This document shows, in pieces, positions 2,695 through 60,479 of a stretch of DNA of 64,000 nucleotides. The translations under genes and the position numbers were made by a program. The notes under the pieces are model-generated. The model saw only the letters and a list, made by a program, of their open reading frames with translations, ran no database searches and was not told the origin of the DNA. The stretch comes from a candidate division FCPU426 bacterium. Its GTDB lineage: Bacteria > Oederibacteriota > Muellerivitia > Muellerivitales > Muellerivitaceae. The stretch lies in contig JASHNQ010000062.1 in assembly GCA_030041545.1 (NCBI GenBank), forward strand, positions 38,156 through 102,155, written 5' to 3'. Positions within the stretch are counted from its first letter, which is position 1, and every line of letters starts with the position of its first letter.

Positions 2695-3663
2695 TCAATT
2701 TTTAGATCTTTTTGCTTTACCGCTTAAGAGGGTGACCAAAACCGCCTTTTGCGCGTGCAGGCGGTTTTCCGCCTGATCCCATACCCTTGATTGCTTACCG
2801 TCGATGACACCGGCCGACACTTCCTCGCCCCGGTGGGCAGGAAGGCAATGAAGGAAAATAGCTTTAGGACTTTCCGACATGAGCTTTTCATTCACCTGGT
2901 AGCCTTGAAAGTCCTTTACCCTTTTTTCTTTTTCGGATTCCTGGCCCATGCTGGCCCAAACGTCGGTATAAACCACGTCCGCTGCCTTGGTCGAACCCTC
3001 CACTTGGTGTGTCATCTCAATGCGGCTACCCGTTTTCTCGCCTTCTTTTTGGGCGGATTTGAGAATGGTGGAATCCGGCTCATAGCCCGGCGGGCAAACC
3101 ACCCTACAGTGAACACCTGTTTTGGCGGAAATGATCATCAGGCTGTGGGTCATGTTGTTGCCGTCGCCCACGTAGACCAATTGGAGCCCCTTTAATTTTC
3201 CGAATTCCTCCTGAACGGTCTGGAAATCCGCCAACACCTGGCAGGGATGGTGGCTGTCGGTCAATCCGTTGATGATCGGCACGCCGGAATTCTCAGCCAA
3301 TTCCTCGACGATGGAATGGGCATAGGTCCGGATCATGACGCCTTGGACGTAGCGGGAAAGGACTTTGGCGGTGTCACTTACGGACTCGCGTTTCCCGATT
3401 TGAATCTCGCTTCCATTGATGAAAAGGGCATGGCCGCCCAACTGGTACGTTCCGACCTCGAAGGAAATGCGGGTCCGGGCCGAGCTCTTGTCAAAGATCA
3501 TGGCCAGGCACTGTCCGGCCAAGGCCTTTTGGTAGTTGGAGGGCGACTTCTTGATCTTCGCCGCCAGGCCGAGGAGTCCCGAAACCTCTTTCGGGGAAAA
3601 CTCCTCCAATGTCAATAAATGCCGGGGATTCATAAAACCTCGAAAATCCAATTTTGCGCTCAT
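2695..3663 (-). CDS. argF: ornithine carbamoyltransferase
   Basis: HPCQ, GDGNN, SMG, HCLP motifs; the carbamoyl-phosphate motif reads SART instead of STRT. Confidence 0.93.
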   Translation of the reverse strand: MSAKLDFRGFMNPRHLLTLEEFSPKEVSGLLGLAAKIKKSPSNYQKALAGQCLAMIFDKSSARTRISFEVGTYQLGGHALFINGSEIQIGKRESVSDTAKVLSRYVQGVMIRTYAHSIVEELAENSGVPIINGLTDSHHPCQVLADFQTVQEEFGKLKGLQLVYVGDGNNMTHSLMIISAKTGVHCRVVCPPGYEPDSTILKSAQKEGEKTGSRIEMTHQVEGSTKAADVVYTDVWASMGQESEKEKRVKDFQGYQVNEKLMSESPKAIFLHCLPAHRGEEVSAGVIDGKQSRVWDQAENRLHAQKAVLVTLLSGKAKRSKN

Positions 3664-3691
3664 TAACTCAAAACTTAAAACTCATAACTCA

Positions 3692-4894
3692 TCACTTGTT
3701 TTGCAGTTCCTCAGCCGCGGCTTTACGGAGCTTTTCAATGGCTTTGTCCACATCCGCTTCCGTGATGATGAGGGGCGGGGTGAACCTCAGCACGTTCTCA
3801 TGGGCCGAACCAACCAACAGCCCCTGTTTGGCGCACTCGGAAACCATGGAAGCGGCCTTTCGCGTCATTTCCATGCCCAACACAAGGCCGATCCCCCGGA
3901 CTTCGGTAAAAAGTTGGGGGAATTCAGCTTGGACCGCCTGGAGTTTTTGCCTCAGGTACACACCGTGTTGGGCGGCGTGCACCAGCAAATCTTTGCCGAT
4001 GATGGTTTCGATATTGGCGATGGCCGCCGCGCTCACGATAGGGTTGCCACCGAAGGTGGAGGCGTGATCGCCCGGTTTGAAGCCATGGGAAACCTGGTTG
4101 GTCACTAAAAGGGCCCCCATGGGAAGCCCGCCGCCCAAGGCTTTGGCCGAGGCCATCATGTCCGGCTCAATACCGTAATGTTCGTAGGCCCACATCTTGC
4201 CCGTACGGCCAATGCCGGTTTGGACTTCGTCCAGGATGAGGATAATTCCTTTCTCCCGGGTCAACCCCCTCAATTCTTTCATGAATTTCGGGTCGGCGGG
4301 CTGGATCCCCCCCTCACATTGGATGGGCTCGATGAGAACCGCCGCGGTTTTATCGTTGATCAACCCCCTGACGCTCTCGATGTTGTTGAAGGTGGCGTAA
4401 TGGATGCCCGGCAAGAGCGGTTCCAGGCCTTCCTGGTATTTCACCTGGCCCGTGGCCGTGATGGACCCGTAAGTCCTCCCGTGGAAAGAGTGGTAAAAGC
4501 TGATAATCTCGAACTTGTCCTGGCCTTCCCTACGGAAATGCTTGCGGGCCAGTTTGAGGGCGGCCTCGACCGCCTCGGTCCCCGAATTGCAGAAAAACAC
4601 CTTTTGGGCGAAGGAAATGTCGCACAGAAGCTTCGCCAATTTCACGTTGGGCTCGTTGTAATAAACGTTGGAAATGTGGCCGAGTTTCTTGGCTTCCTCA
4701 ATAATGGCGTTCACCACCTCCGGATAGGCCTGGCCCAGGGCGTTGACGGCGATCCCTGAGAAGAAATCCAGGTAAACCGCCCGTTCCGAATCGTAGACAT
4801 GGGCGCCCTCACCGCGCATCAGGACGATCTTTTGCCGGTTGTAAACCGGCAGGAGATAATCCTCGCCTTGCTGGATGATCTGGGTCGTATCCAT
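3692..4894 (-). CDS. argD: acetylornithine aminotransferase (class III PLP)
   Basis: FHGRT, DEVQTGIGRTG, AKALGGG, HASTFGGNP; first gene of the arg cluster. Confidence 0.93.
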   Translation of the reverse strand: MDTTQIIQQGEDYLLPVYNRQKIVLMRGEGAHVYDSERAVYLDFFSGIAVNALGQAYPEVVNAIIEEAKKLGHISNVYYNEPNVKLAKLLCDISFAQKVFFCNSGTEAVEAALKLARKHFRREGQDKFEIISFYHSFHGRTYGSITATGQVKYQEGLEPLLPGIHYATFNNIESVRGLINDKTAAVLIEPIQCEGGIQPADPKFMKELRGLTREKGIILILDEVQTGIGRTGKMWAYEHYGIEPDMMASAKALGGGLPMGALLVTNQVSHGFKPGDHASTFGGNPIVSAAAIANIETIIGKDLLVHAAQHGVYLRQKLQAVQAEFPQLFTEVRGIGLVLGMEMTRKAASMVSECAKQGLLVGSAHENVLRFTPPLIITEADVDKAIEKLRKAAAEELQNK

Positions 4895-5301: not shown

Positions 5302-6420
5302 CTTCTCATACTCCTCGATGGCGAACCGGTCGGTCATACCGGCGATGTAATCGCAAATGATGCGCCTTAAGGGGTCGACTTTATTTTTGATTTTTTCACG
5401 GGTATTGATGGGCAGGATATCGGGGTTGGACTCATAAAGGTGGAAGAGCTCCTGGATCACCTTGGCCGCCTTTCCTTCCATGCGGGTAACATGGGGGTGC
5501 CGGTACATGTTCTGGAAGAGGTAACGCTTCATTTCCAGGAAGTCCTGGCGGAACCCGGACGAAAAAGCCGCCACTTCCTCCGGGCAACGCCGTACATCCC
5601 CGACGGTCTTAATGCCGAATTTCCCGATCCGCCGGCCCGTCTCTTCCAGCAGGTCGGTCACCTGCTCGTCGATCAAAAGCCGAACCGTCTGGTACTTGAC
5701 CTTGTCCTTGCCCAAGTTCGGGTGGCGCTCCTTTAATTTTTCAAAGTTTCGCTTCCAAAGGGGCACCATATCCAAACCGTCAAAAGCCAACAAACCCGAA
5801 GTGAGCCCGTCATCCACGTCGTGGGAGGTGTAGGCGATTTCATCGGCTAGGTCCACGATCTGGGCCTCAATGGTGTACTGGTCCCCATCCCCCCCGGGCC
5901 GGTCATAGCGCGTACGGTGCTTGTCCACACCCTCGAGGACCTCATAGGAAAGGTTGAGCCCCTTGAAATCTGGGTACCGGTCCTCCAGGTGGGTGACGAT
6001 GCGGTAGCTTTGGGCGTTGTGCTCGAAGCCACCGTCGTTTTTCATGATTTCGTTGAGTACCTTCTCGCCCGAGTGTCCGAAGGGGGTATGGCCCAAGTCA
6101 TGGGCCAGGGAGATGGCTTCAGTCAAGTCCTGGTTCAAGCCTAAGCTTCGGGCGATGGACCGGGCGATCTGGGCCACTTCCATGGTGTGGGTGATGCGGG
6201 TGCGGTAATAATCCCCCTCATGGTTGACGAAAACCTGGGTTTTATACTGGAGGCGGCGGAAAGCGGAGGCGTGGATGACCCGGTCGCGATCGCGCTGGAA
6301 GGACGTTCGGTAGGAATGTTCTGGTTCCGGGTAGTGGCGCCCACGGCTTTGGTTGGACCGCTGGCCATAGGAAACCAGAGTTTCATCTTCCAATTGTTCC
6401 AGTTGTTCCCGCGTTCTCAT
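5275..6420 (-). CDS. dgt: deoxyguanosinetriphosphate triphosphohydrolase (HD family)
   Basis: FQRDRDRVIH, RRLQYKTQV, RTRITHT, AHDLGHTPFGHSGE, DYIAGMTDRFA. Confidence 0.95.
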   Translation of the reverse strand: MRTREQLEQLEDETLVSYGQRSNQSRGRHYPEPEHSYRTSFQRDRDRVIHASAFRRLQYKTQVFVNHEGDYYRTRITHTMEVAQIARSIARSLGLNQDLTEAISLAHDLGHTPFGHSGEKVLNEIMKNDGGFEHNAQSYRIVTHLEDRYPDFKGLNLSYEVLEGVDKHRTRYDRPGGDGDQYTIEAQIVDLADEIAYTSHDVDDGLTSGLLAFDGLDMVPLWKRNFEKLKERHPNLGKDKVKYQTVRLLIDEQVTDLLEETGRRIGKFGIKTVGDVRRCPEEVAAFSSGFRQDFLEMKRYLFQNMYRHPHVTRMEGKAAKVIQELFHLYESNPDILPINTREKIKNKVDPLRRIICDYIAGMTDRFAIEEYEKLTEPSIRV

Positions 6421-9179
6421 GGTTTTCCAATCATTGGGTCTTTTAGGAGGGACCGGAGTTCTTGGGCCAAATTTTGATAATCTTGGGAATAAGGCGCCAA
6501 GGACGCGGCCAAATCCGCTTCCCGGCTCGCTTTGCCCAGTTCGTGCTCATTATAGTAAGCGACCGCTAAATTTCTAGCGACGTCCTCCCTTTCTGGGCTC
6601 AACCGCTGGGCTTCTTCCAAAAGCGGGATAGCCGCTGACATCTTCTTCCGAACCAGGTCATCAGCGGCCCGCAAATCGTCCCACGCCGCTTCGTCGCCGT
6701 TTCTTTTGAACCCCTCGCGCCCCATTTCAAGGGCCTGACGGTCCATGTCCGGGGAGCCGCCCATGGCCGCGAAGGACCATTGGAAACATGGAAGGCCGAT
6801 TTCAGGGTGTTGTTCGGACATAAGCTGGTAAGTTTGAAGGTAAGCATCAGCTGGCACATTTTGCCCCGCGAGGTCCGACAGCTGCGCCAAACCCATGGCA
6901 CGCTGTATATCTTCAACATAGTAAAGTTCGGTTCCCGGTAGGAAATCGGGCAATTCGGAAAAACCATCCCTAGGACCGACCTCATAAAAGGAATAACCAT
7001 GGCCCACGGGCAATGGAATCTTGCGCGTGAATTTAAGGAAAAATTGCTCGAAGTTTTTGAGTTCCGGCGGCTTCCAGGGATAGCGGTTAATTCCCAATTC
7101 ACTCACCCGGATGGCGGTTCCCAACATGGAATTGGCGTTATAGAGGATATGGGTGAAGCCGTTTTCCCTGAAACGCTTGTAAAGTTCTTCGGGAGTGTCC
7201 GACGTTTCCGACCATTTTTTCAGGACCGGGTAGGTGTAATCAAAGTCATAGGCCGATACCCGGTCCAAGTAATATCCGTTTTGTTGGCCGATAATCAAGA
7301 CCTTAGCGTCCGAGGGCAGGGTTTGACTCAGGGTGTCGGCCACTGTCATATAGCCATCGGGTCTTAAAACATGGCCGAAGAACTCCTCCCGGCTTTGAAA
7401 ACCCAAAGAACAGGCAAAAGGCGTGGGCTGGTTGGCCAAGCCTTGAAAAAGATAAAAAGCGCAAACCCAGAATAAGACACCCACGAGGACGCTCAACGCC
7501 CTTTCAAAAGCGCCCCAGCGGGCCGCCACCCATTGGTAGACCGCCGCCAGAGGAAGGTTGGCCAAGGCCAGGCTTCCCGTTATCAGCCGCAACTGGTGGG
7601 TGGTCACAAGCCAGAAAAAAAACGGAATCCCGACAACTATCAGAAAAGGCCGCTTCCACAGAAGTTCTTTCCATTTTAAGACCAAATACAAAAGCAAAAC
7701 CGGCAGGAGAATGAAAGGCACGAGGCTCACTTCCTCGTTGGGGGCGCCACCATAGTTTTCAAAAACGATCTTCCAGGGCAACAAGGGGGCCTGAAGCAGG
7801 CCCCCTAGTCCTTCCATTGGAAACTTGATGGCGGAAGCTTGAGCGTCAAATGGGGTCCAATCAAGGGGTTGGAATATTCCAGCGAGGTGGGGATAGACAG
7901 GGTCATGGACGTAGAACCAGCTTTTGAGCGCCCAAGGGCCGAAGAAAAACAAGGGTCCTCCCCACAGCCAAGCGGCCACCGCGGAATCTGTTTTTGAGCC
8001 CCGATGGCACGTCCAAAATAAAAGGACTCCCGCCAGCCAAAATGAAACCGCGTTGTATTTGACAGCCCAGGCCAAACCCAGGGCCATGGACGCCAGTATT
8101 CCCAAGCCGGGACGTTGCCTGTTCTCTTCTTTCCCCCAAACCATCAGGTATCCCAAACCCAAAACTGAATAAAAACCCGTGAATAGATCCACGTAGCCCC
8201 GCGTGGAAAAGAGGTTTAAGTAAGGGAACACCCAGTAAAAGGCGGCCGCGATCCAGCCAACCTTCGCATCGTTAAATAGGTTTGAAGCTTGCGGAGGTTG
8301 TCTCCCGTACCCTTGAAGGGGGACTGGGTTGCATATCCCTGCTTCGCCTGGCAGGCCAACCTTCTTCGAGAAAAACCGGTTTCCAATCCCCACAAGGGCC
8401 AAGGCTGTCCCCAAATGGGCTAAAAAACTAAAGGAACGCGCCAAGGAGTCATTGTCCCAAATCATTCCCCAGGAAAAAATCATTTGTCCTAAAGAAGGAT
8501 AATGGGCGGGCTCGACGCCGATGACCGGATAGAAACCGTGTTCGATAAAATAAAACTTGGGAAGGACCAGCTGGTAGGTGATAGCGTCCCAGCTCATCTC
8601 CGGGGCCAACAAGTTGGAAAGGCTCAAAAGAAGAACAACGGCTATGGGCCAAAGCCAAAAGAAGGGTATTCCAAGGGGTTCCTGGAAAGGCCAGCACCGC
8701 CGCAGGGCCTCCTTCCTGTCGAAAACCAGAAATCCGGCGAAGGCCAATACCATCAGGGCCCTCAAGAGGGGGCCGTAGAAAAGGTTTTCGAAGGCGAGGC
8801 CCTCCGCCAAAAGACCCCAAAAACCCATCCCCAACGCGAGGGACCATGCCCATCCTTCCATGAAGCTTAAGCCCAGCGGACCCACCCTTTCCAAGAGGGG
8901 GGCGCCAGTTCCGCAAAAAACAACCATGCTTCCGATAAACGCCAGGAGGAAGAACCCATGGTGAAACCATGTGGTCCCAACGAGGGCCCAAGTCCACCGG
9001 GAGTATTTGAAGGAATCAACGAGATAGCGGAAACTTTGGGTGGGGTGGGGTGGAATTTTCCAAAAGAAGAGGAGAAGGCAGGTCAAAAACCAGAGGAGAA
9101 AAAACCAAAAACCTTTCGGCGGTTGTGAGCCCGAAGCCTGATACCGCCGGTCCATCCTGACCCCCATCGGCCATAACAA
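6417..9179 (-). CDS. polytopic membrane protein, ArnT/GT-C-like glycosyltransferase with C-terminal TPR-like region; start uncertain
   Basis: Many TM helices; WDAITYQLVLPK..., YVDLF and AVKYN motifs typical of GT-C-like proteins; C-terminal helical repeat (LSPEREDVARNLAVAYY). Confidence 0.7.
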   Translation of the reverse strand: MLWPMGVRMDRRYQASGSQPPKGFWFFLLWFLTCLLLFFWKIPPHPTQSFRYLVDSFKYSRWTWALVGTTWFHHGFFLLAFIGSMVVFCGTGAPLLERVGPLGLSFMEGWAWSLALGMGFWGLLAEGLAFENLFYGPLLRALMVLAFAGFLVFDRKEALRRCWPFQEPLGIPFFWLWPIAVVLLLSLSNLLAPEMSWDAITYQLVLPKFYFIEHGFYPVIGVEPAHYPSLGQMIFSWGMIWDNDSLARSFSFLAHLGTALALVGIGNRFFSKKVGLPGEAGICNPVPLQGYGRQPPQASNLFNDAKVGWIAAAFYWVFPYLNLFSTRGYVDLFTGFYSVLGLGYLMVWGKEENRQRPGLGILASMALGLAWAVKYNAVSFWLAGVLLFWTCHRGSKTDSAVAAWLWGGPLFFFGPWALKSWFYVHDPVYPHLAGIFQPLDWTPFDAQASAIKFPMEGLGGLLQAPLLPWKIVFENYGGAPNEEVSLVPFILLPVLLLYLVLKWKELLWKRPFLIVVGIPFFFWLVTTHQLRLITGSLALANLPLAAVYQWVAARWGAFERALSVLVGVLFWVCAFYLFQGLANQPTPFACSLGFQSREEFFGHVLRPDGYMTVADTLSQTLPSDAKVLIIGQQNGYYLDRVSAYDFDYTYPVLKKWSETSDTPEELYKRFRENGFTHILYNANSMLGTAIRVSELGINRYPWKPPELKNFEQFFLKFTRKIPLPVGHGYSFYEVGPRDGFSELPDFLPGTELYYVEDIQRAMGLAQLSDLAGQNVPADAYLQTYQLMSEQHPEIGLPCFQWSFAAMGGSPDMDRQALEMGREGFKRNGDEAAWDDLRAADDLVRKKMSAAIPLLEEAQRLSPEREDVARNLAVAYYNEHELGKASREADLAASLAPYSQDYQNLAQELRSLLKDPMIGKP
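8256..8364 (+). mobile_element. 99-bp CCA-flanked element inserted in frame in the membrane protein gene
   Basis: GCCAACCTTC at 8256 and 8355 (period 99); the interior matches the tRNA-linked units (CCTTCGC...GCGGAGGTTG, central hairpin, TGGCAGG-CCA end). Confidence 0.8.
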
Positions 9180-9207
9180 AAAAAGCCCGCTGGGAATAGC
9201 AGGCGGT
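9176..9207 (-). terminator. intrinsic terminator after tRNA-Ala and its repeat array
   Basis: GCCTGCT-ATTCCC-AGCGGGC followed by a T run on the minus strand. Confidence 0.65.
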
Positions 9208-9226
9208 GGTGATTCATTGAGTCACA

Positions 9227-9443
9227 AGGAAGCGAAGATTTGCCTGCCAACCGCAGCTGGAAGGTTCAGCCCTGCACCTCTTCTCTAATGCTACGGGAGG
9301 CAACCTTCGCTAACTTCTGAGTTGTTCAAGGATGCGAACGTTGGCTTGCCATACATAGCTGGGGCATTACTGCGCGCCCTCCTTCGCTAATGCTACGGAG
9401 GTCATACTTCGCTTACTTTAAGAATATTCAAGGAAGCGAAGTA
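9227..9443 (-). repeat. two tandem ~101-bp CCA-flanked units plus a partial third, downstream of tRNA-Ala
   Basis: Unit boundaries at 9444, 9342 and ~9241; shared CTTCGC...GCGAAG inverted repeat and CCTCC(G)TAGCATTAG(C)GAAG(G)AGG hairpin. Confidence 0.8.
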
Positions 9444-9519
9444 TGGTGGAGGCGATGGGGATCGAACCCACGACCCCTTCCATGCCATGGAAGTGCTCTC
9501 CCAGCTGAGCTACGCCCCC
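9444..9519 (-). tRNA. tRNA-Ala(GGC)
   Basis: Cloverleaf, G3:U70 pair, anticodon arm CTTCC-AT-GGC-AT-GGAAG, encoded CCA. Confidence 0.97.
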
Positions 9520-9604
9520 AACCTGGAACGTCGTCCTTGCTTAACCAAGGGATGCAATTTTAACGAAAAGCCTCAAAAAAACAAGCCAAACAAGGAAGCG
9601 ATGA

Positions 9605-9705
9605 TGGATTGCCACCCGTAGCTTGGTCATTCAACCCGCCACCTTCACCTAAAGCTTCGGTGAGCACTCTCCGTTTGGTTTATAAATTTCATGGAAAGCG
9701 TAGGG
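9605..9705 (-). repeat. CCA-flanked ~101-bp unit downstream of tRNA-Val (degenerate)
   Basis: TGG at 9605 and 9706; ACGCTTTCC...GGAGAGTG arm; CCGAAGCTTTAGGTGAAGG hairpin. Confidence 0.7.
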
Positions 9706-9782
9706 TGGTGGGCGAAGTAGGATTCGAACCTACGACCCCCTGCGTGTAAAGCAGGTGCTCTAACCAGCTGAGCTATTCGCCC
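9706..9782 (-). tRNA. tRNA-Val(TAC)
   Basis: Cloverleaf, anticodon arm CCTGC-TT-TAC-AC-GCAGG, CCA. Confidence 0.97.
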
Positions 9783-9794
9783 TTATAAAAAAGA

Positions 9795-9826
9795 AACCCT
9801 AGCGCGTATGAAACGGCTAGGGTTTA
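9795..9826. terminator. hairpin downstream of spoVS
   Basis: AAACCCTAGC...GCTAGGGTTT inverted repeat. Confidence 0.6.
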
Positions 9827-12733: not shown

Positions 12734-12836
12734 TGGCCTGCCATACGGAGCTGGCAAATTGATCGCACGCCCTCCTTCGCCAAGGCTGCGGAGGGCATAC
12801 TTCGCTTACTTCAATCGAATTCAAGGAAGCGAAGTA
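12734..12836 (-). repeat. CCA-flanked 103-bp unit downstream of tRNA-Lys
   Basis: TGG at 12734 and 12837; CATACTTCGC...GCGAAGTATG inverted repeat; CCCTCC..CCTTGGCGAAGGAGGG hairpin. Confidence 0.85.
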
Positions 12837-12912
<76 letters not shown>

Positions 12913-13041: not shown

Positions 13042-13144
13042 TGGCTCGCCATACGAAGCTGTGTCATTCAACTCTCGCCCTCCTTCGCTGAAGCTATGGA
13101 GGGCATGCTTCGCTCACTTTAATATTTTTCAAGGAAGCGAAGTA
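13042..13144 (-). repeat. CCA-flanked 103-bp unit downstream of tRNA-Arg(CCG)
   Basis: TGG at 13042 and 13145; same two-hairpin layout as the other units. Confidence 0.85.
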
Positions 13145-13221
13145 TGGTACGCCTGAGAGGGCTCGAACCTCTGACCTACAGATCCGGAATCTGTCGCTCT
13201 ATCCAACTGAGCTACAGGCGC
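13145..13221 (-). tRNA. tRNA-Arg(CCG)
   Basis: Anticodon arm ACAGA-TT-CCG-GA-TCTGT, CCA. Confidence 0.97.
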
Positions 13222-13272: not shown

Positions 13273-13374
13273 TGGCCTGCCATGCGAAGCTGCCGAATTT
13301 GAATCCAGCCCCCCTTCGCCAAGGCTACGGAGGCATACTTCGCATTGTTTCACAACATCCGTTGAAGCGAAGCA
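13273..13374 (-). repeat. CCA-flanked 102-bp unit downstream of tRNA-His
   Basis: TGG at 13273 and 13375; CATACTTCGC...GCGAAGCATG; CCTTCGCCAAGGCTACGGAGG hairpin. Confidence 0.85.
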
Positions 13375-13452
13375 TGGGGTGAGAGACGGGAATCGAACCC
13401 GCAACCCCCAGATCCACAATCTGGTGCTCTAACCAATTGAGCTACTCCCACC
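13375..13452 (-). tRNA. tRNA-His(GTG)
   Basis: Anticodon arm CCAGA-TT-GTG-GA-TCTGG, G-1, CCA. Confidence 0.97.
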
Positions 13453-13562: not shown

Positions 13563-13695
13563 GGTTTTAATTGGTTTTTGACGATAAAACAGGCTACGGG
13601 GTTTCTTGAAACGACTTGTACTGTTCCTTTGAAGTGAAGATGGCCCACCATGAGTAAGCCCGCTTCCTTCCAAATTTTCATGAAAAGAAGTGGGC

Positions 13696-13905
13696 GCATC
13701 GAATGTTGCGCTTGCCCGGAGCCGAACCCTTCGACTTACTTCGCTCGCTCAGGACAAGCCGGGCCCTTCAAATAGCTTGGCAGGAGTATGCCTCGCTTTC
13801 CAATTCCAAGAAAGCGAGGGGCATCGAATGGTGCGCCTGCCCGGAGCCGGACCCTTCGACCCGCTTCGCTCGCTCAGGGCAGGCCGGGGACCCACTGCTT
13901 AGAAG
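13696..13905 (-). pseudogene. two tandem fragments of the tRNA-Arg(TCT) 3' half (att-like), each with a hairpin element in the T loop
   Basis: 13829-13905 matches the tRNA 3' half at 16598-16642 apart from a ~33-nt insert CCCTTCGACCCGCTTCGCTCGCTCAGGG; a more degenerate copy lies 125 nt earlier. Confidence 0.85.
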
Positions 13906-14183
13906 TTTGCCGCTGATGTTTTTGATGTTCGTTGGAGCCGGTAGTAAAAAAATTCAGTCCCCAGCACATTTTTAAAAGCCTTTGCCCTCAACGGTTTTAT
14001 GACCCGAGGGGGCAAGGGCCTTTTTTTGAAGTGGCGGTCAACGGCGGTTGGAGACGATTAAGCATGGTAAAACATGATTGAGATAGAACACAACTTAACC
14101 GGTGCTTTGCCCACTGCATTAAACTCAGTGGGATGAAATAAATTTGTTTATAATTCTCGAAAGACATTTTGCACGAGGTATCC

Positions 14184-14990
14184 ATGGCCTCAATTTTTTG
14201 TCCCAACTGCACCTTCCGAACTAGGCGGCAATGCCCCAAGTGCAAGGGAAAGGGCATATCAAACCTTGAGTTCCCATACCCAAAATTGGTTTGCGCATTA
14301 GACATCGAGACATACAAAACTGATTTTTCATACAAAAGAAATTCGAAAATTGCCTTGGCCGGGATGAAAATCTTCAAATTTTTTAAAGGAAAATATTTCC
14401 CTAAAGGTTACTCCTATTTCACCGAGGACAAGTTAAAGGAATTGAAATTACAGATCTCCAGCTTTGAAGGTTTGATAATTGGATTCAACATTTACAAATT
14501 TGACCTGGAGGTTTTAGAAGGATATTTTTCAGAGTCATTTATTGAAAAAATCAAAAGAAAAACCATCGACCTGTTCTTCTTGTTGAAATTTTTGAATCAT
14601 GGTTTTTTCAAAGGGCTCAACTTAAATGCGCTTGGAAAGCAAAACCTTGGCATAGGTAAATCTCTCGATATTTCTGGTGGTCAAATTCCAAAACTATGGC
14701 TGTCAGGCAAAAAGGACAAAGTAATCAAATACAACCATCGGGACTGCGATCTAACTTTCAAACTATGGCACAGATTAGTTAAACAAGGGTTTTTGAATTT
14801 TACTGATATCCATCCTTTTGACGGGGAAATTCATAAAACGCTAAGACTGGATAGTGGTTCGCTCAATTATCTGATTCAAAAAAAGATGATTAAAAAATAT
14901 TACCCGCTTATCGCCCAAAAGTTGGCCAATTTTGAGGTCCATCGAGATTTGGGTGGTACATGGTTGGAAAATTCTAGACTACCAAGTTAA
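14184..14990 (+). CDS. RNase H-fold DEDD-type 3'-5' exonuclease with N-terminal CxxC...CxxC motif
   Basis: LDIET (ExoI), GFNIYKFD (ExoII), KYNHRD (ExoIII); CPNC-x7-CPKC at the N-terminus; ATG chosen at 14184. Confidence 0.75.
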   Translation: MASIFCPNCTFRTRRQCPKCKGKGISNLEFPYPKLVCALDIETYKTDFSYKRNSKIALAGMKIFKFFKGKYFPKGYSYFTEDKLKELKLQISSFEGLIIGFNIYKFDLEVLEGYFSESFIEKIKRKTIDLFFLLKFLNHGFFKGLNLNALGKQNLGIGKSLDISGGQIPKLWLSGKKDKVIKYNHRDCDLTFKLWHRLVKQGFLNFTDIHPFDGEIHKTLRLDSGSLNYLIQKKMIKKYYPLIAQKLANFEVHRDLGGTWLENSRLPS

Positions 14991-15063
14991 GAATCAAAAT
15001 CAATTTCAAATTACTCTCCCTATTTCCACGTGTATTCATTGGGAACGCGCTTACCGACACTAC

Positions 15064-15396
15064 TCACGATGCCTTTTCATGGAGCACTTTTCCCCAATGG
15101 TTGGCGGGATAGGCAAGCCCTCCCACAACGTCTTTAGTTTCCTCAAACACTTCAGTTTTCATGAAAACCAGTTGGAGAGGATGCTTTAGGCGTATTTTAT
15201 CGGCCGCTTCATATCCAGCTTGTAAGGGCGGTGGAGCAGGTAAGACCACCAACAAATCAAAATCGCTATCCGGGCGGGGATCACCGTAAGCGAAGGAACC
15301 ATAGAGCAGAACTTTATCGGGATGAAACCGCTTGATAACCCGCTGTACCACTTCTTGAAGTTCTTTTGTTGTTTCTGGGTCTTTTAACTGGATCAT
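15064..15396 (-). CDS. minimal nucleotidyltransferase (MNT antitoxin-like)
   Basis: LLYGSFAYG..RPDSDFDLLVV; C-terminal GKVLHE; ATG at 15396. Confidence 0.85.
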   Translation of the reverse strand: MIQLKDPETTKELQEVVQRVIKRFHPDKVLLYGSFAYGDPRPDSDFDLLVVLPAPPPLQAGYEAADKIRLKHPLQLVFMKTEVFEETKDVVGGLAYPANHWGKVLHEKAS

Positions 15397-15433
15397 TTTC
15401 TCCCTCAAACAATAGCCTAGCCCGATTATAAAA

Positions 15434-15634
15434 TTAAGAAGCGGTTTCGAATTCGATTTTTCTGGCTTCGGCCACGCGGTGGGAAGCGTCCAAGAGCTCA
15501 AGGGAAACAAGGTTGCCCTGCCCGTCGTAATCCAGAATAACTCCAGGTTTGGATTCGTCGCTTTCCACAACGGGCACATTGGGGTTAAGCACCAAGCTTA
15601 GAACGTCGGTTTTTAGATCATAGTTTAACTTCAT
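15434..15634 (-). CDS. DUF2283-like small protein (putative antitoxin)
   Basis: MKLNYDLKTDVLSL...GVILDYDGQGNLVSLELLDAS. Confidence 0.8.
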   Translation of the reverse strand: MKLNYDLKTDVLSLVLNPNVPVVESDESKPGVILDYDGQGNLVSLELLDASHRVAEARKIEFETAS

Positions 15635-15660
15635 TTTTCCCTCTTTATTTCGAAAGAAGC

Positions 15661-15915
15661 CTAACCTTTTTTGCCGTTCTTTTTGCGGAGGAATTTGCTC
15701 GCGTGAAGGATGGTAACGCCCACCACTTTCTTACCCGAATAGCGGACAATCACGTCGTTTTCCGTCAATTCACTATCGGTGGCACGGCTTGGCTTTTGAA
15801 AATTGATATAAAGAACATCCGCCCCTTTGTCGTAAGAGGACCACAGAAACCCCTCGGGAGCCCCCGCCAATGCGGGCACCAACTTCGTGTAATCTTTGAG
15901 TTTTGTTAAGGCCAT
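15661..15915 (-). CDS. DUF2283-like small protein (putative antitoxin)
   Basis: SYDKGADVLYINF...ENDVIVRYSGKKVVGVTILHASKF; overlaps the upstream toxin-like gene. Confidence 0.8.
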   Translation of the reverse strand: MALTKLKDYTKLVPALAGAPEGFLWSSYDKGADVLYINFQKPSRATDSELTENDVIVRYSGKKVVGVTILHASKFLRKKNGKKG

Positions 15916-16208
15916 AGCTGTTTCCTTTTCTCCAAGGAACGAATCCGCCGGGTCAAAAAAGCCGTTATGACAAATCCATCATCGCTCTTTTCCCGGTAAA
16001 CAACAACCACCCATTTCCCCTGCCCTACCGGACGGGCGGCAAGCTGTTCCCCCTCATACCCGGCATAGACTTTTTCAGGGTCTTCAATGGTTCCCAAGAC
16101 GTCAAACTTCAAACCCGAAAGTTCATTGTGTTCCTCGGTAATATGAGCCCAGCGTTCATCCGTCAACCGAATGGAAACCCCGTTAACTGACTTCACTGTA
16201 GATACCAT
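15906..16208 (-). CDS. DUF4258/RelE-like putative toxin
   Basis: IRLTDERWAHITEEH...VVVVYRE..DDGFVITAF pattern; paired with DUF2283. Confidence 0.7.
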   Translation of the reverse strand: MVSTVKSVNGVSIRLTDERWAHITEEHNELSGLKFDVLGTIEDPEKVYAGYEGEQLAARPVGQGKWVVVVYREKSDDGFVITAFLTRRIRSLEKRKQLWP

Positions 16209-16235
16209 AATCCCCCGCGGAGAACGCCTATAACC

Positions 16236-16264
16236 ATGTTATGCACTATCGCAACATGCGTCAA
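16236..16264 (-). promoter_or_regulatory. promoter of the toxin-antitoxin cassette with an overlapping imperfect inverted repeat
   Basis: TTGACG-17nt-TAACAT; ATGTT...AACAT spans 16236-16257. Confidence 0.5.
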
Positions 16265-16330
16265 ACACCGTACCAACCACCGCGCCACCCAGCCAGCCAA
16301 CCCGTATCCCGGATGTCAAGTTAAGAACCT

Positions 16331-16540
16331 TCACCGGTCAATAAGAACGGATGGGGCAAGTTTCAAGAAAACAACATATTCCTCCTGCACATCCACAGCC
16401 AAGCATTTACCCTGCCGCAAGGCCTCGAGATGGCTGATGTTCAAGTTTATTTCCTCCTGATTCCAGCGCTTTCCGAAGGGCTTTTGGCTCTCACCCACAT
16501 CCAAAACAGTTTCAACAACCGCTACTCGGGAATCGGACAT
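16331..16540 (-). CDS. small hypothetical protein
   Basis: 69-aa ORF with ATG and a GGGGG SD-like motif, first gene after tRNA-Arg. Confidence 0.55.
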   Translation of the reverse strand: MSDSRVAVVETVLDVGESQKPFGKRWNQEEINLNISHLEALRQGKCLAVDVQEEYVVFLKLAPSVLIDR

Positions 16541-16597
16541 AATGGCGCCCCCTTTTAATCGTTAAAATTTATCCCGAACTTATGCTTCAACAAAATA

Positions 16598-16674
<77 letters not shown>

Positions 16675-18466: not shown

Positions 18467-18551
18467 CCCTCACCCTACCCTCTCCCGTCAAGGGAGAGGG
18501 GGAAATACACACAAAAACCCTCGCCCCTTGGGGGAGAGGGTAGGGTGAGGG
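18467..18551. repeat. 85-bp REP/MITE-like palindrome
   Basis: Perfect 20-bp terminal inverted repeat CCCTCACCCTACCCTCTCCC / GGGAGAGGGTAGGGTGAGGG with an internal hairpin. Confidence 0.85.
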
Positions 18552-39689: not shown

Positions 39690-39790
39690 CAACAGTTCAC
39701 AGCCTACGGCTGACAGTTCCCAGCAACAACTAAAACCTCGAAACCATCCGTCTTGCTGTGAACTGTCAGCCGTGGGCTGTGATCTGCCTT
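39690..39790. repeat. heptamer-based palindromic element (ACAGTTC/CTGTGAA family)
   Basis: ACAGTTC ACAGCCT ACGGCTG ACAG...CTGTGAA CTGTCAG CCGTGGG CTGTGA arms. Confidence 0.75.
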
Positions 39791-43450: not shown

Positions 43451-43623
43451 CGCTACCTCCAGTTATGAGTTAAGGAAGTTTTTTGTCCCACAACTCAATA
43501 ATCGTGTTAGTGGTTTCGTGGGACTATGCCGATCTCATTCACTGTTTTTATGGAAGATCGGCACGAACCTAAGGTTCAAAAAAACATTCATCAACTCAAA
43601 ACCAAAAACTCAGAACTCAAAAC

Positions 43624-44550
43624 TTATTTTTTTGTTTTAAGGTCGGTTTTAAACGCCTCGGCGATGGTGCTGAGGGCGCCCAGGGTTCCCGATGCCTCCA
43701 AAGGAAGGAAAATTTTCGTGGCCTGCCCGTTGGCCACATTGCCCAGCATTTCCATGTATTTCAAGGCCAGCAAATCCTGCGTTGGATTGCCGTCATGGAT
43801 GGCCTTGAAAACCGTCAGGATGGCTTGGCCGTCTCCCTCCGCCAAGGCGATTTTTTGGAACTTGTTGGCGGTGGCCACCCGCTCAATGGCGCCGGCTTCC
43901 CCTTCCGCCTTCAGGATGGCCGCCTGTTTCTCGCCTTCCGCCTTGGTAATGGCCGCCTGCTTGATACCCTCGGCTTCAATAATGGCGGCCCGCTTGGTCC
44001 TTTCAGCCTTCATTTGGGCGCTCATGGCGTTGACAATGTCCGCGGGCGGATCGATCTTTTGGATTTCCACCCGCGTGACCTTCACGCCCCATTTGTCCGT
44101 GACTTCGTCCAGGATTTCCCTCATCCGGGTGTTGATTTGCTCCCGGCTGTTAAGCGTTTGGTCCAAATCCAATTCCCCGATCGTGTTGCGAAGGTTGGTT
44201 TGGGCTAGGTTGGTGGCCGAACCCTCAAAATACTGGACGTTGTAAACAACTTTAAAGGGATCGGTCACATGGAAGTAGATCAAGGCGTCCACGGAAACGA
44301 CCACATTGTCTTTGGTGATCACCTCCTGCGGGGGGACGCTGATATATCTCTCCCGCATATCCACTTTGCGCATGCTCTCAAAGGGCGGGAAAAGGACGGT
44401 CAAACCCGAATCCGCCGTGCGGGTGTACTTCCCCAGGCGTTCCACCAGCCCCTTTTCATAGGGGCGGATGATCCGGATGGCGCGGGAAACGTAAATAAAC
44501 ACGAAAATGAGGAATATTAAAATGGCCGGACCGGCAAGGATTTCCATCAT
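43624..44550 (-). CDS. SPFH/stomatin (band 7) family protein
   Basis: GLVERLGKY, PQEVITKDNV, AQTNLRNTIG, QMKAERTKRA; ATG at 44550 with GGAGG. Confidence 0.93.
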   Translation of the reverse strand: MMEILAGPAILIFLIFVFIYVSRAIRIIRPYEKGLVERLGKYTRTADSGLTVLFPPFESMRKVDMRERYISVPPQEVITKDNVVVSVDALIYFHVTDPFKVVYNVQYFEGSATNLAQTNLRNTIGELDLDQTLNSREQINTRMREILDEVTDKWGVKVTRVEIQKIDPPADIVNAMSAQMKAERTKRAAIIEAEGIKQAAITKAEGEKQAAILKAEGEAGAIERVATANKFQKIALAEGDGQAILTVFKAIHDGNPTQDLLALKYMEMLGNVANGQATKIFLPLEASGTLGALSTIAEAFKTDLKTKK

Positions 44551-45005: not shown

Positions 45006-45117
45006 TTCAAACCCCAGTTCTAAGTTTTGAGTTCGCAGTTTTGAATTACTGAATGTTTTTGAACCGAAGGTTCAAAAACTTCCCTAACTTGAAACTCAAC
45101 ACTCAGAACTCAAAACT

Positions 45118-46122
45118 TTACTTTTTGGACGCCATATATTCAATGAGGTCCGCGACGCGGTTGGAATAACCCCATTCATTGTCGTACCAGGAAAGCACCT
45201 TCACCAGGTTGCCCCCGGTCACGAAGGTGGATTGGGCGTCCACGATGGAAGAGTGGGAATTACCCTTGAAATCCGAGGAAACAAGGGGTTCATCCGTTAC
45301 GTCCAAGTACTTATCCAGCTTACCCCGGGCGGCCTCCTTGAGGGCGTTGTTGACGTCGTCCTTGGTGACGGTCTTGCCGACCTCGGCCACCAAGTCGGTC
45401 ACCGAGACGTTGGGCGTGGGAACGCGCATGGCCAAGCCGTCCAGTTTGCCTTTCAGGTCGGGCAGCACCAAGCCGATGGCCTTGGCCGCCCCGGTGGAAG
45501 TCGGGATTATATTCAGGGCCGCGGCGCGGGCCCGGCGCAGGTCCTTATGCGGGAAGTCCAAAATGACCTGGTCGTTGGTGTAGCTGTGGATGGTGGTCAT
45601 CAGGCCCTTCACGATGCCGAATTTGTCGTGCAGCACCTTGGCGAAGGGCGCCAGGCAGTTGGTGGTGCAGGAGGCGTTGGAGACCACGTGGTGGTTCTTC
45701 GGGTCGTATTTGTCCTCGTTCACGCCCAGGACGATGGTGATGTCCTCGCCCTTGGCGGGAGCGGAGATGATGACTTTCTTCACGCTGTCCTTGATGTGGA
45801 CCACGGCTTTTTCCTTGTCGGTGAACCGGCCTGTGGATTCCACCACGTACTCGATGCCGTGCTTGCCCCAGGGGATGGCCGCGGGATCCTTTTCGGCGTA
45901 AACCTTGATTTCCTTGCCGTTGACGATAACGGTGCCGTCGCCGGCCTTCACGTCCGCGTGGAGGTTTCCCAAGACCGAGTCATATCTCAAAAGATGGGCG
46001 AGCGTATTGGCATCCGTGAGGTCGTTGACAGCGACGATGTCGATGTTCTTGTTCCCCATCGCGGCGCGGTACACGTTGCGCCCGATGCGGCCAAAACCGT
46101 TGATGCCGACCTTGATAGCCAT
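45118..46122 (-). CDS. gap: glyceraldehyde-3-phosphate dehydrogenase (type I)
   Basis: [36 protein letters not shown]. Confidence 0.98.
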
Positions 46123-59781: not shown

Positions 59782-60379
59782 CCGCCATTCCCCCGGGTGC
59801 GCCGATCCGTCGGCGGCTGTTTTCTCCAACACCGGGTCTTCCCCCGGAGCCAAGCCCTTGTTTCCGGAGATGATAGCAACACTGGAATAATCCCAACGGC
59901 TTATTTTCACCTTTTGCAAACGGAGGGTCCTTTCACGGCCTAAGGAACCACTCCCTTCGTCAAACCACGAGGCCCCTTGGTCGATGGCCACCCCCCGAGG
60001 GGATGGCGGGGGATTCTTGGACTTAGCGATCGGAAAGGCACAATCCCCTTCTCCCCACTTTTCAAAGCGGGGAATTTACGTCAAAAGAACGCGGCCCCGC
60101 TATTCAAGCGTGGCCGCGTCGCCCAAGATCAGGATCAGTGGCGGTCGTTTCCCCGCTCAAACCAGTCCTAATCGCCCTTCGTTAAAAATATCCCAATCGG
60201 TGGACAAAAGGGCTCCGAATACGCGAAAGGCCGAAAAAGGCCACTGAACGGACATGGAACGGGCTGAACGCCGGTATTTTGAGGGAAAATCCCGTGTTAT
60301 ACTCGGCCCTTTAAAAGCAGCCTACAGCCCTTTGATGAACCCAGGGCCTAATAAAATCGCCATGAGCCTGCCGAATGGT

Positions 60380-60465: not shown

Positions 60466-60479
60466 TTCAAGGATGCGAA

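What the first reader, a model, noticed from the sequence alone, without database searches (positions are those of the whole stretch)
8256..8364. The tRNA-linked element has inserted in frame into a membrane protein gene, adding 33 aa
Seen: the protein reads FSK-KVGLPGEAGICNPVPLQGYGRQPPQASNLFNDA-KVGWIAAAF. The 99-bp segment is flanked by GCCAACCTTC and matches the tRNA-linked unit, read in the antisense direction. It lies between two hydrophobic helices, i.e. in a loop. Known: Rickettsia palindromic elements add peptides to proteins in the same way. Inference: this shows the element is or was mobile, and that its target is CCA rather than tRNA itself.
Basis: partly seen in the sequence, partly recalled or inferred. 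Interest (0 to 1): 0.7.

Follow-up and report, generated by a model that had tools for sequence, protein, structure and literature searches.

The report
tRNA-tail repeat inserted in-frame in gene
A roughly 100-base folded repeat that normally sits directly behind tRNA genes has been copied, in frame and without stop codons, into a loop of a membrane glycosyltransferase-like gene, which shows that this apparently undescribed repeat family, found in two bacterial phyla, can move.

Summary
Window 8260-8358 (+) is a full-length 99-nt copy of a repeat that otherwise starts immediately after the 3' CCA of tRNA genes. It lies antisense in a 912-aa GT-C-like/TPR membrane protein gene and adds 33 aa. 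All 24 orthologues (44-82% identity) have a clean 33-aa gap. The empty site in the closest relative holds CCAACCTTC once; the window holds GCCAACCTTC twice. AlphaFold places the insert in a low-confidence loop between two helices.

The repeat has three hairpins, two with compensatory changes. It ends in a stem plus CCA and has no terminal inverted repeats. It has no Rfam match, and my limited literature searches found no description. It occurs behind tRNA genes in candidate phylum FCPU426 and in Rhizomicrobium-like Alphaproteobacteria. Seven tRNA sites are filled in some genomes and empty in close relatives, so the element inserts. The junction is always directly 3' of CCA.

CCA is necessary but far from sufficient. 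The one non-tRNA site also mimics the unit's own first six bases.

The moving enzyme is unknown and none is in the window. I favour single-strand, CCA-directed cut-and-join, but this is inferred.

The parts
8260..8358 (+). Intragenic copy of the tRNA-linked unit (99 nt, from the base after CCA to its own terminal CCA). It is antisense to the host gene and encodes the 33 extra residues.
   Evidence: nhmmer E=1.3e-24; CM 89.6 bits, full length; all three hairpins kept.
8256..8265 (+). Left copy of the 10-bp direct repeat GCCAACCTTC (host CCA plus the first 6 nt of the unit).
   Evidence: L001 4976-4985 maps to both flanks.
8355..8364 (+). Right copy of the 10-bp direct repeat GCCAACCTTC (the unit's terminal GCCA plus host ACCTTC, which is the K-V-G codons on the gene strand).
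6417..9155 (-). Host gene: a 912-aa polytopic membrane protein with a C-terminal TPR domain, resembling GT-C glycosyltransferases.
   Evidence: AF2 pLDDT 83.6. Foldseek matches to AglB/STT3/AftA have low TM-scores (0.31-0.47). One GT39 hit at E=4.5e-9.
9444..9519 (-). tRNA-Ala(ggc), followed by two tandem units.
9342..9443 (-). Unit Ala_u1, starting directly after the tRNA CCA.
9240..9341 (-). Unit Ala_u2. It starts directly after the CCA of Ala_u1 and ends CAA. It is the closest relative of the intragenic copy (70% identity).
9225..9239 (-). 15-nt partial unit start (ATCTTCGCTTCCTTG) after the array. The same 15 nt follow tRNA-Ala directly in relative L001, which has no unit there.
9185..9204 (-). 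Terminator-like hairpin plus T-run downstream of the Ala array. The units lie between the tRNA and its terminator.
9605..9705 (-). Unit after tRNA-Val(tac) (tRNA at 9706-9782).
12734..12836 (-). Unit after tRNA-Lys(ctt) (tRNA at 12837-12912).
13042..13144 (-). Unit after tRNA-Arg(ccg) (tRNA at 13145-13221). The site is empty in L001 and L005.
13273..13374 (-). Unit after tRNA-His(gtg) (tRNA at 13375-13451). The site is empty in L001 and L005.
13641..13690 (-). Possible degenerate short unit (hairpin 1 plus ...TGGTGGGCCA end, no hairpin 2) after a pseudo tRNA-Arg 3' fragment.
   Evidence: Not significant in the nhmmer or CM searches.

Best explanation
SHOWN. Window 8260-8358 is a secondary, lineage-specific insertion of one unit of a small non-coding repeat family.
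- The unit is about 85-120 nt long. It starts at the first base after a 3' CCA, almost always the encoded CCA of a tRNA gene or of a preceding unit.
- It folds into three hairpins and ends in a 6-7-bp stem followed by CCA.
- Units lie between the tRNA and its terminator, so they are probably co-transcribed as a 3' trailer that tRNA end-processing can remove. That makes the site a safe haven.
- The intragenic copy is the only non-tRNA insertion among about 20 copies seen.
- It was tolerated for three reasons. It is 99 nt long. It is antisense, and that frame is open in most units. It falls in a loop between two helices of a GT-C-like membrane protein.

INFERRED. The unit is a non-autonomous mobile element moved in trans by an enzyme encoded elsewhere.
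- My preferred mechanism is single-strand cleavage and joining immediately 3' of a CCA that is presented next to a stem. That stem is the tRNA acceptor stem at the target and the unit's own hairpin 3 at its right end. HUH/Y1 transposases of the IS200/IS605 and REP-RAYT type work this way.
- Two internal segments are complementary to the left junction (CCA+N3): the end of the 3' arm of hairpin 1 (...TGG) and a pre-terminal hexamer (N3-TGG). They would act as guide or clamp.
- This mechanism would explain several features: insertion exactly after CCA without terminal inverted repeats, head-to-tail arrays (each unit recreates the target), and the off-target in the gene, whose CCAACCTTC can pair with a subfamily-B unit's GAAGGTTGG.

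My probability that the unit is an inserting, CCA-adjacent element is about 0.85. My probability that an HUH-like single-strand DNA route is the mechanism is about 0.3.
For: Insertion is real.
- All 24 orthologues show a clean 33-aa gap.
- The empty site TCCAACCTTCGG in L001 contrasts with the duplicated GCCAACCTTC in the window.
- An identical sequence occurs in a second assembly.

Family membership.
- nhmmer gave E=1e-24 and the CM gave 89.6 bits.

Structure.
- Hairpins 1 and 2 have compensatory changes. About 92% of cells are paired, against 40-53% when partners are slid. 0 of 500 shuffles reach the observed covariation score.
- Positions 4-5 after CCA also covary with the pre-terminal hexamer: 91% paired, 0 of 500 shuffles.

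Mobility: filled versus empty orthologous sites.
- His and Arg(ccg): window filled, L001 and L005 empty.
- Ala(ggc): 2 units in the window, 0 in L001.
- Lys: window and L001 filled, L005 empty.
- Val(tac): present in the window and L001, absent in L003-L005.
- Ala(cgc): L007/L012 filled, L014-L016 empty.
- Met: L009 and L017 filled, L018 and L019 empty. Two different variants occupy the site in genomes whose IlvA is 96% identical.

Two phyla.
- FCPU426.
- Rhizomicrobium-like Alphaproteobacteria.

Other support.
- No terminal inverted repeats.
- Units lie upstream of the terminator.
- Antisense frame 1 is open in 7 of 10 FCPU426 units and 6 of 7 others, while sense frames mostly carry TAG or TGA.
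- The insert is a pLDDT<50 loop between helices 236-262 and 298-308.
Against: - No transposase, recombinase or reverse transcriptase was found in the window (ten ORFs only) or next to units in other contigs. The enzyme is hypothetical.
- In the window all copies lie within 5.5 kb (8.2-13.7 kb). tRNA-Arg(tct), Pro and Glu carry none. This fits local copying as well as transposition.
- The genome-collection scan found the subfamily-A motif on one contig only.
- In IS200/IS605 elements the guide lies 5' of the hairpin and the cleavage site is some distance from it. Here hairpin 1 abuts the junction, so the geometry differs.
- G.T versus A.C counts in the helices do not show which strand folds.
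- The intragenic copy is only 70% identical to its best relative, so no donor is identified.
- Four other CCAACCTTC sites in the window are empty.
Confidence: 0.6

Rival explanations
1. One-off replication error. A nascent strand stalled in the gene at CCAACCTTC. It switched to the lagging-strand template about 1 kb ahead, at the Ala_u1/Ala_u2 junction (CCAACGTTC). It copied one unit backwards and switched back by microhomology (fork stalling and template switching). No element-specific machinery is needed.
For: The closest relative of the insert is Ala_u2, about 0.9-1.1 kb away and in inverted orientation. A 9-10-nt microhomology sits at both junctions. All window copies are clustered within 5.5 kb.
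Against: Identity to Ala_u2 is only 70%. Orthologous units and neutral DNA of the window and L001 are 81-88% identical, and the insertion post-dates that split. This model does not explain the seven independent gains at tRNA sites, each exactly after CCA with no downstream homology. It also does not explain the presence of the family in two phyla.
Confidence: 0.12
2. RNA-mediated spread. The trailer is processed to an RNA that starts after the tRNA CCA and ends in its own CCA. A reverse transcriptase starts at the 3' CCA and switches template onto the 3' CCA of a tRNA or of another unit RNA. This gives tRNA-unit-unit cDNAs that recombine into the chromosome. The gene copy would arise by target-primed synthesis at a nick after TGG on the other strand, with microhomology at the 5' junction.
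For: Both unit boundaries coincide with RNA 3'-end landmarks (CCA). Units are inside the tRNA transcription unit. Head-to-tail arrays occur. The 3' end is a stem plus CCA, tRNA-minihelix-like. CCA-initiating, template-switching reverse transcription that joins tRNAs to a replicon is known for the Neurospora Mauriceville retroplasmid (own knowledge).
Against: No reverse transcriptase was seen in the window or flanks. No precedent in bacteria is known to me. The downstream junction at tRNA sites has no homology to support recombination of a cDNA.
Confidence: 0.15
3. The unit is a host-beneficial structured RNA module of tRNA 3' trailers, for example a processing, stability or termination signal. 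It spreads among tRNA genes by ordinary recombination. The gene copy is an accident with no bearing on mobility.
For: The 3' 20 nt (CAGCTTCGGATGGCAGGCCA) are strongly conserved between a 55% GC and a 62-70% GC lineage. The helices covary. The unit is always co-oriented with, and directly behind, a tRNA.
Against: The distribution is patchy even between close relatives (IlvA 88-96% identity, GT 64-82%). Most tRNAs lack it. Different variants occupy the same site in near-identical genomes. Different tRNA trailers share no homology that could support ordinary recombination.
Confidence: 0.1
4. The 33 aa are ancestral and were lost in the other lineages, or the insert is an assembly artefact.
For: None beyond the fact that only one lineage was sampled with the insert.
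Against: All 24 orthologues spanning 44-82% identity lack exactly these 33 residues. The segment is a full-length member of a non-coding repeat family. Two assemblies agree base for base. Unique gene sequence flanks the 99 bp on both sides.
Confidence: 0.02

Closest known systems
Rickettsia palindromic elements (RPE) and other small repeats fused in frame to genes (BOX, ERIC, Correia; reviews PMC3184786, PMC10969869)
   Same: A short non-coding repeat of about 100-150 bp is inserted in frame. It adds a peptide at a loop without destroying the protein. The element has reading frames free of stop codons.
   Different: RPEs and MITEs are palindromic or have terminal inverted repeats. They are dispersed in many genes and intergenic regions and are not tied to tRNA ends. 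This unit has no terminal inverted repeats. It has three separate hairpins, is bounded by CCA on both sides, and sits behind tRNA genes. Only 1 of about 20 copies is intragenic. The MITE review does not mention tRNA at all.
IS200/IS605-derived palindrome-associated elements and REP/BIME elements moved by RAYT (HUH/Y1) transposases (own knowledge; REP families in PMC3733652)
   Same: There are no terminal inverted repeats and there are hairpins near the ends. Insertion is directly 3' of a short specific motif without a regular target duplication. Internal bases are complementary to the cleavage site. The elements are non-autonomous and act in trans.
   Different: The motif here is CCA at a tRNA 3' end. 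Hairpin 1 abuts the junction instead of lying about 15-20 nt inside. The two end hairpins are unlike each other. No Y1 transposase gene was found. REPs are 20-40 nt and carry a GTAG or CGTC tag.
E. coli tyrT distal repeats (178 bp x 3.14, each containing the last 19 nt of tRNA-Tyr; own knowledge, not checked here)
   Same: Head-to-tail units lie directly behind a tRNA gene, with a fractional last unit. Each unit ends in the tRNA-like ...CCA.
   Different: The tyrT repeats are a single-locus duplication of the tRNA's own 3' end. The present units share only CCA with the tRNA, follow at least nine different tRNA species, occur in two phyla, and have inserted into a protein gene.
Neurospora Mauriceville/Varkud retroplasmids (own knowledge)
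   Same: The replicon RNA ends in a tRNA-like stem plus CCA. Template switching yields head-to-tail concatemers and precise tRNA-CCA|replicon junctions.
   Different: Those are mitochondrial plasmids that encode their own reverse transcriptase. Here the units are about 100 nt, chromosomal and non-coding, with no reverse transcriptase in sight.

Membership tests
RPE / MITE-type repeats | Terminal inverted repeats or overall palindromic unit | tested here: not met
   The unit starts (T/A)(A/C)CTTCGC and ends ...TGGCAGGCCA. The ends are not reverse complements. The unit has three separate hairpins.
RPE / MITE-type repeats | Target-site duplication of fixed length at every copy | tested here: not met
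   A 10-bp duplication is seen only at the gene site. At the tRNA-Ala(cgc), Met, His and Arg sites nothing beyond CCA is duplicated.
RPE / MITE-type repeats | In-frame, stop-free insertion into protein genes at surface loops | tested here: met
   The insert is 99 nt with an open antisense frame, and orthologues show a 33-aa gap. It is a low-pLDDT loop between helices. Only one such case was seen.
IS200/IS605-type PATE or REP-RAYT elements | Insertion directly 3' of a specific short motif, with no inverted terminal repeats | tested here: met
   Every copy starts at the base after CCA (alignment A7; invariant C1 C2 A3).
IS200/IS605-type PATE or REP-RAYT elements | Internal guide bases that pair with the cleavage sites | tested here: inconclusive
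   CCA+N3 covaries with the 3' arm of hairpin 1 and with the pre-terminal hexamer. The geometry differs from IS608, and pairing during transposition cannot be tested in silico.
IS200/IS605-type PATE or REP-RAYT elements | A cognate HUH/Y1 transposase gene in the genome | not testable with these tools
   None was found among ten window ORFs scanned with Pfam.
Any Rfam family | Score at or near a family's gathering threshold | tested here: not met
   Only tRNA hits were found in the window and in the five metagenome loci. Nothing matched over the units even at E up to 5.
tRNA-like structure / acceptor minihelix | About 7-bp stem followed by single-stranded NCCA that is recognised by RNase P, CCA-adding enzyme or a synthetase | tested here: inconclusive
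   A 6-7-bp stem plus CCA is predicted in several units, but there is no discriminator base. Only 3 pairs are in the consensus. Enzyme recognition was not tested.
GT-C glycosyltransferases (host protein) | Polytopic N-terminal GT-C membrane domain | tested here: inconclusive
   Foldseek matched AglB, STT3 and AftA at E 7e-7 to 5e-4, but TM-scores are 0.31-0.47. One GT39 hit at E=4.5e-9. No Pfam domain except a weak TPR.

The most novel reading that the evidence does not exclude
The unit represents an undescribed class of bacterial mobile element, or a tRNA-like RNA or single-strand replicon. It is defined by CCA at both borders and homes to the 3' end of tRNA genes using base-pairing of internal 'TGG' guides with CCA plus the adjacent bases. 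It crosses phylum boundaries (FCPU426 and Alphaproteobacteria). It is moved by an enzyme, or by a tRNA-processing or CCA-dependent activity, not yet linked to transposition.
Probability: 0.3. Interest if true: 0.85.

Novelty: new variant of a known kind. Interest (0 to 1): 0.7.

Why it matters
In-frame insertion of selfish repeats into proteins is a known but rarely documented route of protein evolution. This is a clean, datable example outside Rickettsia, in an uncultured phylum.

More important is what the intragenic copy reveals about the repeat behind the tRNA genes.
- It is an inserting element with an unusual architecture: CCA to CCA, three covarying hairpins, no inverted ends.
- It has a very precise target, the last base of a tRNA gene.
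- It occurs in two unrelated phyla and has no Rfam family.
- My limited literature searches found no description of it.

If the mechanism is worked out, it could add a new type of site-specific, possibly guide-assisted, single-strand insertion system. It could alternatively reveal a link between tRNA 3'-end biology and genome mobility.

In practice, such units can mislead gene callers, because they leave open antisense frames next to tRNAs. They also inflate tRNA trailers in metagenome-assembled genomes.

Tried and rejected
- Rfam at gathering and E-value thresholds, on the window and on five metagenome loci: only tRNAs.
- Genome-collection scan with the subfamily-A hairpin-1 pattern: only the already known relative.
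- First metagenome pattern: 0 hits. Only the second pattern, based on the 3' end, found the wider family.
- Viral contigs with the conserved 3' 20-mer: 0 hits.
- PLSDB plasmids with an alphaproteobacterial tandem pair, blastn: 0 hits.
- nhmmer and CM search for diverged units in the more distant syntenic relatives L003-L005 and L014-L016: none.
- Pfam scan of ten window ORFs for transposase, integrase or reverse transcriptase: none.
- Literature searches by phrase and by sequence motif: nothing relevant. One paper could not be opened.
- A protein-level search with the translated unit was prepared but dropped. The antisense peptides are only 25-34% identical, so it would have had no power.
- G.T versus A.C asymmetry, to decide which strand folds: no clear signal.
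- Self-cleaving ribozyme (HDV-like, hatchet, hammerhead): considered and rejected. Rfam gave no hit, and hairpin 1 is a simple hairpin, not a nested pseudoknot.
- Classical integrase att site: considered and rejected, because empty tRNA sites share only CCA with the unit junction.
- Ancestral segment or assembly artefact: rejected.
Full report
1. THE OBSERVATION

The minus-strand ORF 6417..9179 contains ...FSKKVGLPGEAGICNPVPLQGYGRQPPQASNLFNDAKVGWIAAAF.... The database protein P0001 (912 aa) starts at 9155.

On the plus strand, GCCAACCTTC occurs at 8256-8265 and again at 8355-8364, exactly 99 bp apart.

The window has eight tRNA genes. Five of them, all on the minus strand, are followed by a repeat of about 100 nt: Ala-ggc, Val-tac, Lys-ctt, Arg-ccg and His-gtg. 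Ala has two in tandem.

The plus strand of 8257-8363 aligns over its whole length with the tRNA-sense strand of these units. Scores are nhmmer E=1.3e-24 and covariance model 89.6 bits, E=4e-21, positions 1-106 of 106.

A contig of a second assembly (GCA_030051685.1, L002) is 100% identical to window 5787-9812. The insert is not a one-off assembly error.

2. IT IS AN INSERTION

A search of 5.8 billion proteins gave 31 orthologues. In an alignment of the window protein with 24 of them (44-82% identity), every orthologue has a clean gap of exactly 33 residues.

The closest relative is L001 (GCA_030038835.1), a 'candidate division FCPU426' MAG. It is syntenic and 84-88% identical in DNA. Its gene reads TTT TCG CCG AAG GTT GGA TGG (F S P K V G W). 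The window reads ...TCG AAG AAG GTT GGC [99 bp] ...AAG GTT GGC TGG.

BLAST maps L001 4976-4985 to both flanks of the insert. On the element's sense strand the empty site is TCCA|ACCTTCGG. The filled site is GCCA|ACCTTCGC...GGCAGGCCA|ACCTTCTT.

3. WHERE IT SITS IN THE PROTEIN

An AlphaFold2 model built from the 25-sequence alignment has mean pLDDT 83.6 and pTM 0.83. Residues 265-294 are the longest stretch below pLDDT 50. They lie between helices 236-262 and 298-308. The low confidence is partly expected, because the insert has no homologues in the alignment.

The fold resembles GT-C glycosyltransferases (AglB, STT3, AftA) with a C-terminal TPR domain, but TM-scores are low at 0.31-0.47. Pfam finds only a weak TPR. 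The only sequence link to glycosyltransferases is one GT39 hit at E=4.5e-9. I could not tell which side of the membrane the loop faces.

4. ANATOMY OF THE UNIT

Every unit begins at the base after a CCA. That CCA belongs to the tRNA or, in arrays, to the preceding unit. Every unit ends in ...TGGCAGGCCA, except one that ends in CAA.

There are no terminal inverted repeats. The consensus structure has three hairpins.
- Hairpin 1: (CA)NNCTTCGC...GCGAAGNN(TG). It includes the CA of the upstream CCA.
- Hairpin 2: CCNCC-G(A/T)A-stem-loop-stem-G(A/T)A-GGNGG.
- Hairpin 3: a short 3' hairpin that in several units extends to 6-7 bp, followed directly by CCA.

On 17 units, 92% of cells are paired, against 40-53% when the partners are slid. 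Four base pairs show changes on both sides in several sequences. 0 of 500 shuffles reach the observed covariation score.

One finding was unexpected. The two variable bases after CCA covary with the 3' arm of hairpin 1 and also with a pre-terminal hexamer N3-TGG. The observed pairs are CCATAC/GTATGG, CCATGC/GCATGG, CCACCC/GGGTGG, CCAACC/GGTTGG and CCATCC/GGATGG. Here 91% of cells are paired and 0 of 500 shuffles reach the score.

G.T versus A.C counts do not say which strand folds. No Rfam family matches.

5. THE FAMILY IS WIDER THAN THE WINDOW

A scan of one genome per species found the subfamily-A motif only in L001. A first metagenome pattern found nothing.

A second pattern, built on the conserved 3' end, found five contigs. 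In all five the match lies directly behind a tRNA gene or, in one case, a duplicated tRNA 3' fragment.
- L007: tRNA-Ala(cgc), and a duplicated 3' fragment of tRNA-Arg(acg).
- L008: tRNA-Val(gac), two units in tandem.
- L009: tRNA-Met.
- L010: tRNA-Val(cac).
- L011: tRNA-Tyr.

L007 is low in GC. Its TadA is 76% identical to that of GCA_027452205.1, the assembly that also holds a GT orthologue (L005). It therefore belongs to the FCPU426 lineage.

L008-L011 are 62-64% GC. L008 carries the alphaproteobacterial sRNA mmgR at 71 bits. L009's IlvA is 77-83% identical to proteins named Rhizomicrobium sp. or Alphaproteobacteria bacterium.

The last 20 nt, CAGCTTCGGATGGCAGGCCA, are almost invariant across both lineages.

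6. THE ELEMENT INSERTS

Orthologous tRNA sites differ between related genomes.

| Site | Filled | Empty |
|---|---|---|
| His, Arg(ccg) | window | L001, L005 |
| Ala(ggc) | window (2 units) | L001; L003-L005 |
| Lys | window, L001 | L005 |
| Val(tac) | window (1), L001 (2) | L003-L005 |
| Ala(cgc) | L007/L012 | L014-L016 |
| Met | L009, L017 | L018, L019 |

- At Ala(ggc), L001 has no unit but keeps a 15-nt unit start.
- At Met, L009 and L017 have IlvA proteins 96% identical, yet they carry clearly different variants of the unit.
- Empty tRNA sites read CCA|ATTTTAG, CCA|TATTTAG, CCA|TCACTCGG, CCA|TTTTGAG, CCA|GCCGGGC and CCA|GCTTGAA. Nothing downstream of CCA resembles the unit.
- In each case the unit sits between the CCA and the tRNA's terminator.

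7. WHAT THE TARGET IS

- All junctions follow CCA. But the window has 3229 CCA sites and 830 GCCA sites, and all other copies seen follow a tRNA, a tRNA 3' fragment or another unit.
- The gene site is special. Its CCAACCTTC equals the left junction of subfamily-B units, such as L007 CCA|ACCTTCGCTTCC and L017 CCA|ACCTTCGCGCG. It is also the exact complement of Ala_u2's hairpin-1 3' arm (GCGAAGGTTG), and its first six bases (CCAACC) are the exact complement of Ala_u2's pre-terminal GGTTGG.
- If CCA alone were enough, six further matching bases would be expected at about 1 site in 4096.
- The motif is not sufficient either. Four other CCAACCTTC sites and three CCANNCTTCG sites in the window are empty.
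- I conclude that the normal target is a tRNA 3' end, meaning a stem plus CCA. The gene site is an off-target that mimics a unit junction.

8. WHY THE GENE COPY SURVIVED

Modal unit lengths are 102 and 99 nt. The antisense frame used in the gene (GLP.EA...) is open in 7 of 10 FCPU426 units and 6 of 7 others. The sense frames usually contain TAG (from CCGTAGC) or TGA (from TTGAA). An antisense, in-frame copy in a loop is the kind of insertion that selection would let through.

9. MECHANISM (INFERRED)

No transposase, integrase or reverse transcriptase is among the ten window ORFs I scanned. None is evident next to units elsewhere.

The features to explain are these.
- The cut is exactly after CCA at both borders.
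- The right end is a stem plus CCA, which resembles the target.
- Arrays are head-to-tail.
- There are no inverted ends.
- Internal TGG-containing segments are complementary to the left junction.

I favour single-strand cleavage and joining of the HUH/Y1 type (IS200/IS605, REP-RAYT; own knowledge of those systems), acting in trans. The geometry differs from IS608, so I give this route about 0.3.

An RNA route is a serious rival. It would involve a processed trailer RNA with a CCA 3' end, and CCA-primed or template-switching reverse transcription as in the Mauriceville retroplasmid (own knowledge).

For the gene copy alone, a replication template switch from the Ala array 0.9-1.1 kb away, in inverted orientation, fits the 10-bp junction homology. 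But the best relative is only 70% identical, while orthologous DNA of the two genomes is 81-88% identical. The model also does not explain the tRNA-site gains.

10. COMPARISON AND NOVELTY

The outcome, a peptide added in a loop by a selfish repeat, is what RPEs and some MITEs do (PMC3184786; PMC10969869). The element is not of that kind. It fails the inverted-repeat and fixed-duplication criteria.

It resembles IS200/IS605-type elements in inserting 3' of a short motif without inverted ends. The cognate enzyme is untested.

I found no Rfam family. My phrase and sequence-motif searches found no paper describing a CCA-bounded, tRNA-3'-linked repeat. This is absence of evidence within a limited library.

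I rate the finding as a new variant of a known kind. There is a real chance, about 0.3, that the element class itself is new.

Noticed in passing
window 13690-13905 (-): There are two copies (71 nt, 87% identical) of a pseudo 3' half of tRNA-Arg(tct). The T-loop is replaced by about 37 nt (CCTGCCCTGAGCGAGCGAAGCGGGTCGAAGGGTCCGG). Each is followed by CCA or CA and hairpin-1-like sequence. It looks like the att-type scar of the neighbouring islet mixed with unit debris.
   Followed up: partly
window about 13900-16597: A 2.7-kb islet lies between the pseudo tRNA-Arg fragments and the intact tRNA-Arg(tct) (16598-16674). It is absent from the syntenic relatives L001 and L005. It encodes an RNase_H_2/PolB-exonuclease-like protein (14169-14990, Pfam E=1e-9). 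By eye, not tested, it also encodes a nucleotidyltransferase-like ORF (15064-15579) and two small toxin-antitoxin-like ORFs (15661-16208). No integrase was seen.
   Followed up: partly
window 43580-43634, 45016-45127, 3653-3706: A family of A-rich repeats (..AACTCAAAACTCAGAACTCAAAACTT..) occurs in direct and inverted orientation. The repeats lie in the intergenic regions around the gap, pgk and Band-7 genes. Their function is unknown.
   Followed up: no
window 39693-39786; 60378-60466 and 62738-62826: Another repeat family is built on CAGTTCACAG...CTGTGAACTG. One copy is a 34-nt inverted repeat (91% complementary). Two direct copies of 89 nt (72% identical) lie upstream of the LptF/LptG-like genes.
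   Followed up: no
window 18467-18551: A GC-rich palindrome with 34-nt arms, 85% complementary: CCCTCACCCTACCCTCTCCC...GGGAGAGGGTAGGGTGAGGG.
   Followed up: no
L015 3610-3880 and L016 3580-3700: In unit-free relatives, one or two partial copies of the 5' part of tRNA-Ser(gga) precede the intact tRNA-Ser. Each partial copy (GGAGAGATGGCCGAG...) comes with about 100 nt of repeated spacer. A different tRNA-linked duplication process seems to act at this locus.
   Followed up: no
L007 430-554: About 110 nt of unrelated sequence follow tRNA-Arg(acg). Then comes a duplicated 3' fragment of that tRNA (GGTTCATATCCCTCCAGGCGCACCA), and only then a unit. The unit here is attached to a tRNA fragment rather than to the gene.
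   Followed up: no
L011 3715-3745 and L008 8946-8976: Two alphaproteobacterial units share an extra 30-nt hairpin (CCGGTTGCCGCGAGCTACGGCTCGGCAAGC) between hairpin 2 and the 3' end. The units are therefore modular.
   Followed up: no
L004 241-290 and L005 7470-7500: Unit-free FCPU426 relatives carry short sequences that resemble hairpin 1. One lies behind tRNA-Val (CCA|ATCTTTGCTTTTC...TTCGAAGGTTAGG). One lies downstream of tRNA-Arg(tct) (ACTTTCGCTTCCGTGAATAG). They could be relics of old units or the ancestral trailer hairpin from which the unit arose.
   Followed up: no
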